This document shows positions 58,801 to 64,000 of a stretch of 64,000 nt of DNA, in pieces. The stretch is taken from positions 186,001 through 250,000 of the forward strand of contig NW_026931011.1 in the NCBI RefSeq assembly GCF_032062105.1, in the 5' to 3' direction. How positions within the stretch are numbered: position 1 is the first letter of the stretch; each line of letters begins with the position of its first letter. Made by a program: the position numbers. The stretch comes from Saccostrea cucullata (taxonomy: Eukaryota).

Positions 58801-61800
58801 CGTGTGGATGTCGTTCAACAGAGTTCTTAGCATTTCTACAGAGAGACTGGTTCACCGGGATGAACGCTGCCTCAGTCAAGACGGAAACAAACACGCTACG
58901 CACATTTGATCAGATTTCAATCCCATTGAGCCAAGCAGAACATTGTACACCGGTGTAGGAACTGTTTTTTGTGTTTGTCCGAGTCTGGTTCTAATGACTC
59001 TCTTTAAAACTTATCATCGGATTGCAAGGAAGTCATTTTACGACTTTGTAAACAAGGGTCCCGCGCTCAGTCACAGTCACGTGACTTTTGCGATAACCCA
59101 TAAACGTTCCATTGTCCACTTAATGTAATTCAACCAAGTGTTTTTTTTTACAAACAATTTTTTATTGTGAACAGGATGTATCACAATAGCTTTTTTGTAT
59201 ATATTTCATATATTATTTGAGTTATTAAAAACATCTGTATATAGTACTGGAACTTCGATTCTTTCATGTTTTCCGAAACCATTTTGTGAAAACGTCATTG
59301 CTTGTCTCGTTAAAGCTTCCAAGATGCAAGTTTTAGACAACCTAAGACTTTATTTTTTTGGTTATCTGCTTTCAAATTAAAGTGAAAGCTTAGAAATGAT
59401 GCATGTATTTTTTGTTTAAAATGATGGGTTCACTTAATAATGATCACCAATTAATATTCGAATTTATACATGATTTCACCAATTCCAACAAATAAAATCG
59501 CTCTATTGAAAAGAAACATTACCTGTATTTGTTTAAAGAAGTATTTCAAGTCTACATGAGAATTTTATCAAGTACTGTAATTGGCTGAAACCTCAAGTGT
59601 GCTTAATGCATTTCAGTCTGTAAACTTTTCACATTTCCGACTTCTTCTCGAAAACCACTGTGTCAGTTTCGACCAAACTTGCCATAAAGTATCCTTGAGT
59701 TAAGGATAAAAAAGTTTGTTCAAAAGAAGTCTATACCCTCTTTCAAGGGAGAGATTATATAAAAAAAAAATTGTGAAAATTTGATGGCATCTTAAAAAAA
59801 TCTTATTATTAAAAAAAAAAACAAACCGGTACAAGAACCAGTGGTCCAGAAAAGTTGAAAAATCTCAGAAAGCTTCCTTACAAAGTGTAGATTAGTAATT
59901 TGATCAAATAGCGACCGGGGGGCTGGGTGCGACTTAATTGAGGATCTAAGTTTTATGTAATACCATATAAGTGGAAATTTAAGCGAGGCGCAAATTTAGA
60001 GATTTGTCCCTAAAAACTGGTATTGTATTTTTAGCGAGATGTCATTTTAGCGATTTTAAAATGCATACTAAAGAAGCTATAAATAATAAAACGCAATTAA
60101 TTTTTAGCGATATTCAATTTTAGCGATCTCGGCATCCTCGCTAATAATGCCAAAATTAAATCCTCGCTAATACGGTATATAGGAAAATCTTTCAAAATCT
60201 TCTGATGAAGAGCAACAAAGCCATGATCAGTAATATTACAATGAAAGGATCCTCAGGTACTGTAGATTCAAGTTTATTAAATCATGTAGGGTGGAGCTAT
60301 ATTGAAGGATCACATAAGAATAAACAGAAAAAATATTTTGAAGGATTATTCTGAAAAACATCGAAGTCCCTGCGTGCCACGGTGGTTAGAGCGTCTTCTA
60401 GATTCGCGGAGAAAGTAGTCGGTTGAAACACAATATAGGGAACAGTAAGGTTGCACTTGGGGGTAAAAAATTAAAGTCTTTATTTTGCCCCAAAAATATT
60501 TTTTCTAAAAAGTAGAGTATCTAAAGGATCTGAAACATAAATGGTTTTGTGAAATTCACATCAGAACTTAGTTTTTTACAAGCTGATAATAACCTCATTT
60601 TCACAGGTTACGGACACTACAAGTGTTGTTTTCTTTGAAATAAATATTGAAAACTGTTTATAAACTCTAATTTTTTCAACTGCTCACAAATAAACAACAT
60701 ATAAAAATACAAAATATGGACCAAAGTTTGACTAAAAAAGGTGGCATTATACTTAAATATGAAAACTGTTCTTACTTCGTACATTTTTGTTTAAAATGGT
60801 AGCATTTCATTTCATGTGAACTCTTTAAAATCAATATAAATAAAGAAAAACCTATTTATAAATAACACTTTTATGCGTTTGTTCAAATATAAATACTTCT
60901 ATTAAAATAGGAAATCTCATTTTCATAAATTTTCTAAAATAATTTGATAATTTCATTGAGTTACGGACACTACAAAACCCAATTATTTATGATTGGCGTT
61001 TGGTTTTGGTAAAACAAAAAATATTTTATAAACTTCTGAACTATTATAAAATACAAAGCATACAAACTAGATATTGTTTCAAGTAAAAACAATTTACTTC
61101 CATAACTAATGCCAATAGAAAGAAATCCACATTAAGAAAATCCTGAAACTTCCTTTTTCACATAACTGAAGTGCAGAAGAAAAGTTCTTTAATTCATTAA
61201 AGTTTTATGAAAACTATTTAGAATGTAGGTACACTGCATAATCAATGAAATCAATTAACCAAATTTAAGGGTTACCGACACTATACAATACTTTAATTTT
61301 TCACAGGCAAAGCGTTTTATTTCTTGTTTCAGTTTCTCCCGACTTTTTTTTATTCTTCAGATCTCAGCATCATCTGTTAAAAGCATATACCATAACCAAT
61401 ATACTTTGAATAAATATATACACATATAACTTTATACAGGTGTTATGTGCAAGTAGAAATTCAAACCTTGAAGAATAAAGCTCACTAATATTTCTTCAAT
61501 TATTTTTTTTATTCTGTGAAGCATTCTATTTTTCTTCAAACAGTTAAATATACAATACTTTATCTGAAATTGGTGTAATTTTAGTCGTTTTCTTTTTTGA
61601 AATTTTTGTAGTGTCCGTAACCAAATTACTTCCCCACTGTTTAACATTTTGAATGCAAATTTACTTGCATTTAATACATTTTATGATATTACCTAATAAG
61701 CAACTAGACAACTGAAGCAATATATCACAAGAAATATGGGTTATGTAACTCATGATTAATAATTTCTAACTATTTTTATATGTCATTGTTGGTGTCCAAT

Positions 61801-64000
61801 CAATATTTTAGTACTTGCAGTAAAGAAAAAATCATATGATCTAAAAAAATTCCAGCTAATAAACACATTTTCATCTCTAAATTTAAAAATACACCGTTTC
61901 AAAAATTTATCTGTAAATTTTATGGAGAAAAAATAGAGATATTTCATTTTTCAACTTTTGGTTACGGACACTACACACTCTACAAGTACAAGTTATTTAA
62001 AATAGGATGAAACTTAACCTTAAACAGAGGAATTTCAACAAGATTTTCTTAAATGTAACACCAATTGACTTAAACAATGAAAAAATAATGACAAGCTATT
62101 TGACTTAAATCCTAGGATGTCAATAGCATCTGCCAATATCAAGGTGATGTAACACCAAGGATCTTGTATATGGAAAGTGCAATCTGGGTTTCCCAAAATA
62201 GTTGCATTATCAAAATGAGGGAGAAAAATAAAGTACATTGACAAACTTGTTAAACAAACTTCTGACCCTTGTGAATAAACTAGCATTAGTGTTTTAACAC
62301 CGCCTCAAACTACCTCAAGTACAGGTTACGGACACTACAGGGTTTTGTAGTGTCCGTAACCACATTTGTGATGATAACAGTGAAACAGTGGTGATGATCA
62401 GGAAGATAACAACACATCTCGGCATTTATATGAGATGCCTATCTAAGAAATTAGTTAAGATATTTATAGAGCCTTCCAATTTCACAGAATTTAAGTGGTT
62501 ACGGACACTACAGTTTTTTTGTAAAATCTTAATATTCCACATTAAAACATGATGAAATTTCTTTACAATTGCTACATTCCACCAATGTGGTATTCTTAAT
62601 TCGCCCTATATAGGCTATATTGTGTTTCACCCGAGTTGATCCTTTTGCGGCGGGTTCGAACCTCGCTGTGGAACGTGCAGACCGGTCCTCCGGATGAGAC
62701 GGTAAGAACCGAGGTCTTGTGTCGCAGAAGGTGATGGCACGAAAAAGATTCCTAACTGCTCAATGGCCGAGTATATTGGGCAGGATTGCAGCTCTTCATC
62801 GGCAAGTGGTGGCGTCTGCATATGAAAAATTCTCGAGAGAGACGTTAAGCAATATACAAAGACACATTTATTACTGATAAGCTGTAAAAAAAAAAATAGA
62901 TAAATAAATTTTGACTTCTTGAAAGATTTTTAAAAACCCTATAGTCTGACAATCAAGACATCTTAAAAAAAGCACAATGCTTTAATGTTAAGATCTTGGA
63001 ATTTTTTCACTTTGACACTATCTTTAGGTTTACAGACATATTTTTCTTAAAGAAGTAATTTTTATCGTCAAGAAAGCTTTAAACACTTCATGCCAAAGAA
63101 CTCCGATTGTAATGCAGGTTTTATGCAGGTTTTAGAGTGATCTGCCCTTATGGAGTGACAGAATGTATAATAGATTCTCAGCATTATATTAGATCATAGA
63201 CCTTAGATCACGACAAGATAAAGTAACTAGACACAGTATTTATATATACATGTATATATGAACATACTTCATTATAATGCTGGATGCTGAGTTCAGTTAA
63301 AAAGTTGTTTTTTTTTTAATCCTTGTGCCATATTGATTTCATGCAAAGAAATACATTTCGTGTTTGTGATGATTTTCTAGATTTCGCTACAAATGTTTCA
63401 GGAACGATTTTTTAGGATGCATATGGTTCTGTAAATCAATGCGTCCTTGGAGACCGAGAAAACGTAGGAGAGCGACAGATCGACCGCTCGCGAACCAGGG
63501 AGCACGAAAATATATACTCCCAACAGTATTACAATGAAGCGATATTGCGACGCTAGAGAGCATCATTATTTCACTTTTTGGGAAATATTAAGTATAGAAT
63601 TATTAATTCAAAACAAAGAAGATTATTGTAATGACCGTTGCTTTTTGATATGTTTTAATGAATGATTTATTATTAATCATTTTATTACAAAAAAATAGGG
63701 ATGTCAACGAGTACCCGGTTAACCGGGTACTCGATCGAACGTCCGAGTATCGAATACTAAAATCGGTATTCGGTTACTCGGATGTATATTTTCAAATATT
63801 TCTAAGCTTATTTATTAATGCACTAAACAATCTGTTTTAAAACGTAAAATACTCATTGCACTTGTACATAAAGTAATTAGGGTTTTAAATGTTATCGCCC
63901 GTGGCAGTGTTTATATAGTAATTATCGTGACCAAGCACCTGTTACCTGGCTTTTCTCACCTTCGACTGTCTTCTACCCTTTTTTTGACTTTCTTTAATTA

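What the first reader, a model, noticed from the sequence alone, without database searches (positions are those of the whole stretch)
60606..62512. 16-bp motif iterated at ~310-365-bp intervals with unique spacers, including a head-to-head hairpin
Seen: GGTTACGGACACTACA occurs 8 times in very AT-rich DNA with start-to-start spacings 353, 311, 337, 353, 364, 22 and 151 bp. I see no repetition among the spacers, and two copies are inverted. Copies at 62324 and 62346 form a perfect 16-bp stem with a 6-nt loop, and the longer version ...CTACAAAACCC is shared by 60959 and 62340-62361. Near-perfect conservation of a CpG-containing 16-mer amid unrelated spacers implies a protein-binding site or a young element. 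Inference: iterated transposase/recombinase sites of a large non-autonomous element (~60440-63025), or a phased chromatin/insulator array at about two nucleosome repeat lengths. It is not CRISPR: eukaryotic context, long spacers, mixed orientation.
Basis: partly seen in the sequence, partly recalled or inferred. Interest (0 to 1): 0.7.

Follow-up and report, generated by a model that had tools for sequence, protein, structure and literature searches.

The report
Phased 16-bp motif array in oyster
A 16-base sequence recurs eight times, about every 345 bases and in both orientations, between unrelated AT-rich stretches of an oyster genome; it most likely marks the ends of small mobile DNA elements, but the even spacing stays unexplained.

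Summary
GGTTACGGACACTACA occurs 8 times (6 exact, one with 1 mismatch, one with 2) only at 60606-62512; 0.26 are expected by chance. The spacings, the two inverted copies and the 16-bp/6-nt hairpin are as reported. The spacers (295-348 bp, one of 135 bp) are unrelated to each other and to the rest of the window. They are unusually AT-rich and CpG-poor, yet every motif copy keeps a CpG. The five ~345-bp intervals are far too even for random placement (P about 6.5e-5). There are no half-decayed copies. The window comes from an oyster, closest to Saccostrea cucullata.

Best reading (confidence about 0.4): the 16-mer is the terminal recognition sequence (TG...CA ends) of a short-TIR non-autonomous transposon family. 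Two TIR-bounded units exist (369 bp and 167 bp), and the second has a 4-bp flanking duplication. The hairpin would be a junction between abutting units. Unrelated bodies, four unpaired ends and the even spacing do not fit a normal MITE family.

Rivals are a selected protein-binding box, Helentron-type subTIRs, recombinase cassette sites and an assembly artefact. No oyster genome, Dfam or Repbase could be searched, so copy number is unknown.

The parts
60606..60621 (+). motif copy c1, exact
   Evidence: shares 19 nt (ACA + motif) with c6
60959..60974 (+). motif copy c2, 1 mismatch (A at position 1); extended version ...CTACAAAACCC
   Evidence: I3
61270..61285 (+). motif copy c3, 2 mismatches (GGTTACCGACACTATA); still holds a CpG
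61607..61622 (-). motif copy c4, exact, inverted
61960..61975 (+). motif copy c5, exact
62324..62339 (+). motif copy c6, exact; left arm of the hairpin
   Evidence: (I16)
62346..62361 (-). motif copy c7, exact, inverted; right arm of the hairpin
   Evidence: (I16)
62497..62512 (+). motif copy c8, exact
61607..61975 (.). unit A: 369 bp bounded by a perfect 19-nt inverted repeat (TGTAGTGTCCGTAACCAAA / TTTGGTTACGGACACTACA); no flanking duplication (TTTT against CACT)
   Evidence: I7; flanks read
62342..62516 (.). unit B: 167 bp (62346-62512) bounded by a perfect 18-nt inverted repeat and flanked by GTTT (62342-62345) and GTTT (62513-62516)
   Evidence: I10; flanks read; chance of a 4-nt flank repeat in at least one of the two units is 0.016
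62324..62361 (.). 38-bp perfect palindrome (16-bp arms, 6-nt centre), flanked by ACA on both sides; read as a head-to-head junction of two unit ends
   Evidence: flanks read
60440..62614 (.). AT-rich, CpG-poor tract that holds the whole array (spacer GC 0.269, CpG observed/expected 0.27)
60419..60438 (+). left copy of a 20-nt inverted pair that brackets the tract
   Evidence: I5; 2 copies in the window; 0.02 expected
62615..62634 (-). right copy of the 20-nt inverted pair
   Evidence: (I5)

Best explanation
The 16-mer is the terminal recognition sequence of a family of small, non-autonomous, cut-and-paste-type DNA transposons (MITE-like). Their ends read 5'-TGTAGTGTCCGTAACC ... GGTTACGGACACTACA-3', that is TG...CA ends. 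The AT-rich tract between two inverted flank modules has collected several such units side by side. Two are complete: A (369 bp) and B (167 bp, with a 4-bp target duplication). The 38-bp hairpin is where the right end of one unit abuts the left end of B. The other single 16-mers are unit ends whose partner end is missing. Shown: the motif, its sharp edges, the two TIR-bounded units, the flank repeat of B, the lack of decayed copies, and the retained CpG. Inferred: that a transposase or integrase binds the 16-mer; that units were inserted next to each other; and, more speculatively, that other head-to-head junctions, being unstable perfect palindromes, collapsed to one arm. That collapse would leave single 16-mers in either orientation at unit-length spacing.
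For: The motif is 16 nt with sharp edges on both sides. It has 8 copies, all within 1.9 kb. Mismatch counts are bimodal: 0-2 in the 8 copies and otherwise at least 4, with none at 3-5 inside 59500-63500. This points to recent copying or constraint, not decay of an old repeat. All 8 copies keep a CpG, while the spacers hold 10 CpG against 36.6 expected. The inverted pairs c4/c5 and c7/c8 are perfect over 19 and 18 nt, so each pair shares 3 or 2 extra inner bases (I7 and I10). They bound 369-bp and 167-bp AT-rich bodies, which are MITE-sized. Unit B is flanked by GTTT on both sides; the chance of this in at least one of two units is 0.016. The ends fit the TGTNR / TG...CA pattern that integrase-type transposons and LTR elements share (passages of PMC2836005, and PMC6839031). 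The spacers differ from random genome pieces: 4 of 6 have GC <= 0.26, which only 5.5% of 330-bp windows reach, giving P = 1.25e-4. This fits AT-rich element bodies or one AT-rich insertion sink. The surroundings are rich in transposons. That different MITE families can share only their TIRs, and that abortive gap repair puts unrelated filler DNA between transposon ends, is recalled knowledge and was not tested here.
Against: No sequence beyond the 16-mer is shared. Within 150 nt up- or downstream of the copies, the only alignments with z > 2.5 were overlaps with neighbouring motif copies. The best upstream k-mer, TTTCA in 5 of 8 copies, is not significant (P = 0.16). Units A and B therefore have unrelated bodies, unlike one normal MITE family. 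Four of the 8 ends (c1, c2, c3, c6) have no partner. Unit A has no target duplication. The one duplication seen is 4 nt in T-rich DNA. The even ~345-bp spacing holds whatever the motif orientation, so one spacer in either reading belongs to no unit yet has the same length. None of the other 62 kb of the window holds a copy, which is odd for a dispersed family. The opposite polarity (GG... as the outer end) has its own weak support: ACA on both sides of the hairpin, and a 6-nt extension shared by c2 and c7 (0.02 such pairs expected). No transposase gene is nearby. Genome-wide copy number could not be measured.
Confidence: 0.4

Rival explanations
1. A functional array of binding sites for a sequence-specific DNA-binding protein, kept identical by selection or gene conversion. 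Either it is the conserved box of a very old ~345-bp tandem repeat whose remainder has diverged beyond recognition, or the sites are held at about two nucleosome lengths (a boundary or architectural array).
For: The five intervals are very even (CV 0.054; P = 6.5e-5 under random placement), and the c6-to-c8 distance of 173 bp is half the period. Six of 8 copies are in direct orientation. All copies lie in one place and none elsewhere in 64 kb. The motif edges are sharp, and the CpG is kept in 8 of 8 copies inside CpG-poor DNA. The head-to-head pair could bind a dimer. Conserved boxes inside otherwise divergent bivalve repeat monomers are reported (passage of PMC7492417).
Against: The spacers show no residual similarity at all. 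That would need saturating divergence while unit length stayed within about 6%. Two copies are inverted yet in phase, which simple tandem duplication does not give. Eight identical 16-mers cannot arise by point mutation, so a copying process is still needed. There are no partly decayed copies. No binding protein is known, and the paper search for the 16-mer gave 0 papers.
Confidence: 0.15
2. [quoted passage not shown] The hairpin would be the 5' subTIR plus its complementary IR, and runs of direct copies would be tandem, end-truncated units.
For: HINEs are abundant in oysters, and one lies in this window. Published HINE anatomy is an 11-15-bp subTIR, an IR 1-22 bp away that pairs with it, an inverted 3' subTIR followed by a palindrome, T-rich targets, variable inner segments, and tandem copies with truncated inner units (passages of PMC4067079, and PMC7492417). 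Read on the minus strand, c7 + c6 + c5 fit '5' subTIR + IR ... 3' subTIR'. An 8-bp-stem palindrome with a T run lies 38 nt beyond c5 (sequence; fold). Both inverted copies are preceded by T runs. The orientation string + + + - / + + - resembles tandem units closed by an inverted 3' end.
Against: [quoted passage not shown] Here nothing is shared beside the 16-mer. The fold of the c5-side segment is no better than shuffles (z = -1.0). Rolling-circle tandem units should be homologous, and these are not. The window's own HINE uses a different subTIR. There is no microsatellite module.
Confidence: 0.12
3. The 16-mers are core sites of a site-specific (tyrosine-type) recombinase, and the spacers are unrelated DNA circles integrated one after another. 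This would be a cassette array analogous to tandem islands, integron cassettes or dif modules in bacteria.
For: Sharp edges on both sides of the site, unrelated inserts, mostly direct orientation, and all copies in one place.
Against: No recombinase gene is seen in the window. The motif is not dyad-symmetric (6 of 16 positions match its own reverse complement, counted by eye). Integration at an asymmetric site cannot produce inverted sites or a head-to-head pair. No such system is known in animals (recalled knowledge). Nothing explains the equal size of the inserts.
Confidence: 0.07
4. An assembly or library artefact: short fragments of insert or nucleosome size, joined by a 16-nt linker or barcode, ended up in the contig.
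For: The motif is a 16-nt module with razor-sharp edges. The inserts are unrelated and of library-like size (295-348 bp and 135 bp). Orientation is mixed, and there is one head-to-head dimer with a 6-nt centre.
Against: The spacers are not a random sample of this genome (P = 1.25e-4 for their low GC). The tract is embedded between ordinary sequence and bracketed by a matched inverted 20-mer. Two copies carry substitutions. Copies c2 and c7 share 6 further bases (0.02 such pairs expected), which points to copying of DNA, not random primers. No sequencing-adaptor remnant turned up: 1 hit with 2 mismatches against 2.16 expected. There are no N runs in the window.
Confidence: 0.05

Closest known systems
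MITEs / short-TIR non-autonomous DNA transposons
   Same: 16-19-nt perfect terminal inverted repeats around AT-rich bodies of 167 and 369 bp. One unit has a short flanking duplication. The units are clustered next to other transposons.
   Different: The bodies are unrelated. Half of the ends are unpaired. The spacing is even. No copy lies elsewhere in 64 kb. Copy number and an autonomous partner are unknown.
Ginger1/Ginger2 DNA transposons and Gypsy-type LTR ends (PMC2836005 passages)
   Same: The ends follow TGTNR ... YNACA (TGTAG ... CTACA), and unit B has a 4-bp flank repeat.
   Different: Ginger TIRs are 40-270 bp or 50-180 bp, and their targets are CCGG/CCGT or RTATAY. Here the TIR is 16-19 nt and the flank repeat is GTTT. 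No integrase-like gene is present.
Helentron-associated elements (HINE / DINE-1; PMC4067079, PMC7492417)
   Same: A short conserved inverted motif with a complementary copy a few bases away, variable inner segments, T-rich flanks, tandem arrangements, and abundance in oysters.
   Different: There is no conserved 3' 60-bp module, no supported 3' palindrome and no microsatellite, and the units are not homologous.
Subterminal transposase-binding repeats of CACTA (En/Spm-type) elements (recalled)
   Same: A short motif reiterated in direct and inverted orientation, including head-to-head pairs.
   Different: Those repeats sit within a few hundred bases of the element ends, tens of bases apart, not every ~345 bp. 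No CACTA-type termini bound the tract.
CENP-B-box-type conserved box in satellite DNA (recalled; box-bearing bivalve repeats mentioned in PMC7492417)
   Same: A CpG-containing box of similar length, recurring at about 340 bp.
   Different: In satellites the DNA between boxes is homologous. Here it is unrelated, and two boxes are inverted.
CRISPR arrays, integron cassettes and dif modules (prokaryotic)
   Same: A short identical repeat separates unrelated inserts of similar length.
   Different: The host is an animal. The spacers are about ten times longer than CRISPR spacers. Orientation is mixed, there are no associated genes, and 42 single chance hits with no array were found in 185,579 prokaryotic species genomes.

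Membership tests
Tandem repeat / satellite (~345-bp unit) | successive units are homologous | tested here: not met
   Across all spacer pairs on both strands, the two highest z scores were 4.2 and 5.2, and both are gappy ~60% AT-rich alignments. blastn found nothing but the motif.
Tandem repeat / satellite (~345-bp unit) | regular head-to-tail period | tested here: inconclusive
   Five intervals of 311-364 bp have CV 0.054 and P = 6.5e-5, but 2 of 8 copies are inverted.
MITE / TIR DNA transposon | terminal inverted repeats bounding the element | tested here: met
   There are perfect 19-nt (61607/61975) and 18-nt (62346/62512) inverted repeats (I7 and I10). Four other ends are unpaired.
MITE / TIR DNA transposon | target-site duplication of fixed length | tested here: inconclusive
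   Unit B is flanked by GTTT/GTTT. Unit A has TTTT against CACT. The chance of one 4-nt repeat in two units is 0.016.
MITE / TIR DNA transposon | many dispersed, mutually similar copies; empty sites | not testable with these tools
   No oyster genome, Dfam or Repbase is available. The remaining 62 kb holds 0 copies. Units A and B share no body sequence.
Ginger (integrase-type) transposons | TGTNR termini | tested here: met
   The ends read TGTAG...CTACA; the pattern is taken from PMC2836005.
Ginger (integrase-type) transposons | TIRs of 40-270 bp and 4-bp duplications at CCGG/CCGT or RTATAY targets | tested here: not met
   The TIR is 16-19 nt and the flank repeat is GTTT.
Helentron / HINE | 11-15-bp subTIRs with a complementary IR near the 5' copy | tested here: inconclusive
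   A 16-nt motif with a complementary copy 6 nt away occurs once (I16). The other copies lack an IR.
Helentron / HINE | conserved last ~60 bp with a 3' palindrome (at least 80% identity within a subfamily) | tested here: not met
   No flank similarity in 150 nt on either side. k-mer test P = 0.16. The fold of the c5-side segment gives z = -1.0.
CRISPR | prokaryotic host, repeats of about 23-47 bp in one orientation, spacers of about 26-72 bp, cas genes (figures recalled, not from a call) | tested here: not met
   The host is an oyster. The spacers are 135-348 bp and orientation is mixed. Pfam found no cas-like domain in the ORFs scanned: all 80 ORFs of at least 75 aa in the window, and 126 of the 168 ORFs of 40-74 aa from 43.5 kb on, covering 43.6-59.4 kb.
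Known RNA families (ribozyme-bearing tandem repeats, snoRNA, tRNA-derived) | match to a curated covariance model or tRNA fold | tested here: not met
   There were 0 Rfam matches at gathering scores in 64 kb. Only 4 weak, irrelevant matches with E up to 5 were found in 59500-64000. There are 0 tRNAs. Spacer folds give z between -2.1 and +1.8.

The most novel reading that the evidence does not exclude
The array is not a heap of transposon ends but a built structure. In this reading a 16-bp site is kept identical by selection or conversion, at two-nucleosome spacing, between unrelated DNA segments. It would be either a phased array of binding sites for an architectural or transposase-derived protein, or an animal cassette array assembled by a site-specific recombinase, with the head-to-head pair as a dimer or synapsis site.
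Probability: 0.12. Interest if true: 0.85.

Novelty: new variant of a known kind. Interest (0 to 1): 0.45.

Why it matters
If these are transposon ends, the locus shows a family in which only 16 bases are shared. It also shows units piling up side by side at one AT-rich site. That makes it a possible natural case of how new miniature elements, and perhaps satellite-like arrays, are born in bivalve genomes, where transposon-to-satellite transitions are actively studied. If the motif is instead a selected binding or recombination site, it would be a rare animal example of a short identical site phased at nucleosome scale between unrelated DNA, and the protein that reads it could be fished out directly. 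Either way, one genome-wide count of the 16-mer would decide most of the question.

Tried and rejected
- Satellite origin of the spacers: rejected.
- A longer conserved unit around the motif: flank alignments found only neighbouring motif copies, and upstream k-mers are not significant.
- Decayed copies at phase or half-phase positions: none at 3-5 mismatches. A fuzzy search allowing indels was uninformative, because shuffles gave 4-30 hits.
- Long terminal repeats of one big element: the flank alignment is not above shuffles. Only a 20-nt inverted pair stands out. A 13-nt candidate subTIR of the flank module has no partner in the window.
- RNA genes or ribozymes: none found.
- Coding content: no Pfam family in any ORF of at least 75 aa of the tract or its flanks.
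- Independent copies through predicted proteins: the 84-aa reading frame spanning three motif copies had no relative, and the 100-aa frame of the right flank had none. These searches cover proteins of similar length only.
- Prokaryotic counterpart: 42 loci with one hit each and none with two, consistent with chance.
- Literature: the 16-mer and its reverse complement occur in 0 papers. Substrings of 12 nt are absent from the supplements of PMC10294476 (12 of 13 files searched) and PMC8268682. Substrings of 7-8 nt in the supplement of PMC7492417 were chance hits inside satellite monomers.
- Sequencing-adaptor remnant: none.
- Excision-footprint reading (both arms of the hairpin as remnants of an excised element): not supported. 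Only ACA/ACA flanks the hairpin, and the single copies have no flank repeats.
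Full report
**Observation**

The pattern GGTTACGGACACTACA has 8 matches at up to 3 mismatches in the 64-kb window, all between 60606 and 62512. Six are exact, one has 1 mismatch (60959) and one has 2 (61270). Shuffles give 0.26 on average, and 0 of 100 reach 8. 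The orientations are + + + - + + - +.

Copies 62324-62339 and 62346-62361 form a perfect 16-bp stem around 6 nt (I16). As single-stranded DNA this folds at -18.5 kcal/mol with z = -6.7. The 21-nt version ending in AAAACCC is shared, inverted, by 60960-60980 and 62340-62360 (I3).

**Spacers**

The spacers measure 337, 295, 321, 337, 348, 6 and 135 bp.
- Local alignment of every spacer pair on both strands against shuffles gave two top z scores of 4.2 and 5.2. Both are gappy, roughly 60% identical AT-rich alignments.
- blastn of 60200-63100 against the whole window found only the motif.
- Within 150 nt on either side of the copies, the only alignments with z > 2.5 were overlaps with neighbouring motif copies.
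- The commonest upstream 5-mer, in 5 of 8 copies, is not significant (P = 0.16).

The motif is therefore a 16-nt module with sharp edges on both sides, and the refutation 'diverged ~350-bp satellite' fails.

**Further properties**

- The five long intervals have CV 0.054. Random placement of eight sites in the same span reached this in 6.5e-5 of 200,000 trials.
- Four of six long spacers have GC <= 0.26, a value reached by 5.5% of the 330-bp windows. That gives P = 1.25e-4.
- The spacers hold 10 CpG against 36.6 expected (observed/expected 0.27, window 0.57). All 8 motif copies nevertheless keep a CpG.
- Between 59500 and 63500 there is no copy with 3-5 mismatches. Copies are near-perfect or at background.

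Together these facts point to recent copying or strong constraint on the 16-mer, not slow decay of an old repeat.

**Context**

One exon (35441-35722, minus strand) is 100% identical over its match to an SLC22A18-like protein of Saccostrea cucullata and 93% identical to that of Crassostrea virginica. So the window is from an oyster.

Pfam finds:
- an ankyrin exon and MFS exons;
- Ras-family exons at 44261-44428 and 46339-46596;
- weak short-chain-dehydrogenase exons at 52131-52310 and 53117-53254.

Nothing coding is recognised between 53.3 and 64 kb: all ORFs of at least 75 aa were scanned, and those of 40-74 aa up to 59.4 kb. The window is rich in ~150-170-bp tandem units typical of bivalve Helentron-associated elements. 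One such element is visible at about 21854-22620.

The tract is bracketed by an inverted 20-nt pair at 60419-60438 and 62615-62634, with 2 copies in the window against 0.02 expected. The longer flank alignment is not above shuffles. Rfam and tRNA scans are empty, and the spacers do not fold better than shuffles.

**Anatomy read as element ends**

Copies c4(-) and c5(+) form a perfect 19-nt inverted repeat around 337 bp (unit A, 61607-61975). Copies c7(-) and c8(+) form a perfect 18-nt inverted repeat around 135 bp (unit B, 62346-62512) (I7 and I10). Unit B is flanked by GTTT on both sides, while unit A is not (TTTT against CACT). The chance of such a 4-nt repeat in at least one of two units is 0.016.

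In this polarity the ends read TGTAG...CTACA. That is the TGTNR / TG...CA pattern of integrase-type transposons and LTR elements (passages of PMC2836005; PMC6839031). TIR length and target do not fit Ginger, however. The hairpin is then simply the right end of one unit lying 6 nt from the left end of B.

I propose, as inference only, that other junctions were once such 38-bp perfect palindromes and lost one arm. This would leave single 16-mers in either orientation at unit-length spacing, and so would explain why the spacing ignores orientation.

**What this reading does not explain**

- The bodies are unrelated.
- Four ends have no partner.
- No copy lies in the other 62 kb.
- No transposase gene is nearby.
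- The opposite polarity has weak support of its own: ACA on both sides of the hairpin and on the left of c1, and the 6-nt inner extension shared by c2 and c7 (0.02 such pairs expected).

I give the transposon-end reading a confidence of about 0.4.

**Rivals**

- **Helentron-type subTIRs.** These fit the hairpin (subTIR plus IR), the T-rich flanks and the + + + - pattern (anatomy from passages of PMC4067079, and PMC7492417). They fail the defining conserved 3' 60 bp.
- **Selected binding-site array, or an old repeat with a conserved box.** This fits the spacing, the locality and the kept CpG. It does not fit the total lack of spacer similarity or the inverted copies.
- **Recombinase cassette array.** This fits sharp edges and unrelated inserts, but not inverted sites, and no recombinase is seen.
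- **Linker or barcode artefact.** This fits the 16-nt module and insert-like sizes. It is made unlikely by the non-random composition of the spacers, the matched bracket, the substitutions in two copies, the 22-nt shared version, and the absence of adaptor remnants.

**Limits**

- Genome contigs holds only bacteria and archaea. There the 16-mer gave 42 single-hit loci and no multi-hit locus.
- Predicted-protein searches with frames across the motif and across the right flank found nothing.
- The paper search for the 16-mer found 0 papers.
- Supplements of two bivalve repeat papers lack it (one file of the first was not searched).
- Paper reading closed, so the supplements of PMC11136912 (five oyster satellitomes) were not seen and could bear on the claim that the motif is undescribed.
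- Of the papers cited I saw passages only. PMC10294476, PMC8268682 and PMC11136912 I saw as search listings, plus the supplement searches named above.
- Statements about MITE families sharing only TIRs, filler DNA, palindrome instability, CACTA subterminal repeats, CENP-B boxes and bacterial cassette systems are recalled knowledge, not tool results.

**Verdict**

This is a real, non-random and locally unique structure. It is most economically read as a cluster of short-TIR transposon ends in an AT-rich insertion sink, but with an arrangement no standard family explains: unrelated equal-length spacers and orientation-blind phasing. It is of moderate interest until a genome-wide count is made.

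Noticed in passing
window 60031-60170: The 7-mer TTAGCGA is clustered here: four direct copies (60031, 60047, 60104, 60120) followed by two inverted copies (60138, 60164). The rest of the window holds only 2. It looks like a subterminal binding-site cluster of some transposon, or a divergent monomer between two satellite-like monomers.
   Followed up: partly
window 60419-60438 and 62615-62634 (weaker similarity out to about 60366 and 62690): An inverted 20-nt pair (19 of 20 identical) brackets the array exactly, with 2 copies in the window against 0.02 expected. Each copy sits at the inner end of a GC-richer ~80-bp module. The right module holds a 10-bp palindrome (GGTTCGAACC). The left module follows monomers that resemble, by eye only, the 160-170-bp oyster satellite monomers printed in the supplement of PMC7492417. 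They may be the 3' ends of two convergent elements.
   Followed up: partly
window 63698-63800: A transposon-like terminus (TAGGGATG...) is followed by a perfect 26-bp palindrome at 63708-63733 and repeated CGAGTA/GGTACTCG-type motifs (read). It runs towards the window end. The same stretch gives a sub-threshold Rfam match to a bacterial sRNA model (E = 0.0074, 37 bits against a cut-off of 60), most likely because of the palindromes.
   Followed up: no
window 21854-22620: A Helentron-associated-type element. An 11-nt inverted pair (GCTCACCTGAG at 21854-21864 and its complement at 22610-22620) encloses three ~163-172-bp monomers (21971-22384, D8 and D13) and a GACR-type microsatellite at about 22539-22575. 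A related monomer lies inverted at 59613-59768 (I1).
   Followed up: partly
window 2650-3281; 6874-7411; 11572-12264 with 42616-43309; 30545-30775; 31684-32133: Several short tandem arrays are present: 53-bp units in 9 listed copies, and ~135-170-bp units. The 11.6-12.3 kb and 42.6-43.3 kb arrays are inverted copies of each other.
   Followed up: no
window 4291-4539 (+), 34485-35722 (-), 44261-46596 (+), 52131-53254 (+): Gene content of the window: an ankyrin-repeat exon; SLC22A18-like MFS transporter exons (100% identical to Saccostrea cucullata); Ras-family GTPase exons; and weak short-chain-dehydrogenase exons.
   Followed up: partly
window 61983-61990 and 62316-62323: The 8-mer CAAGTACA lies 7 nt after copy c5 and immediately before copy c6, so it flanks most of that spacer as a direct repeat (read). 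By my rough estimate about one such coincidence is expected near motif ends, so I treat it as chance.
   Followed up: no
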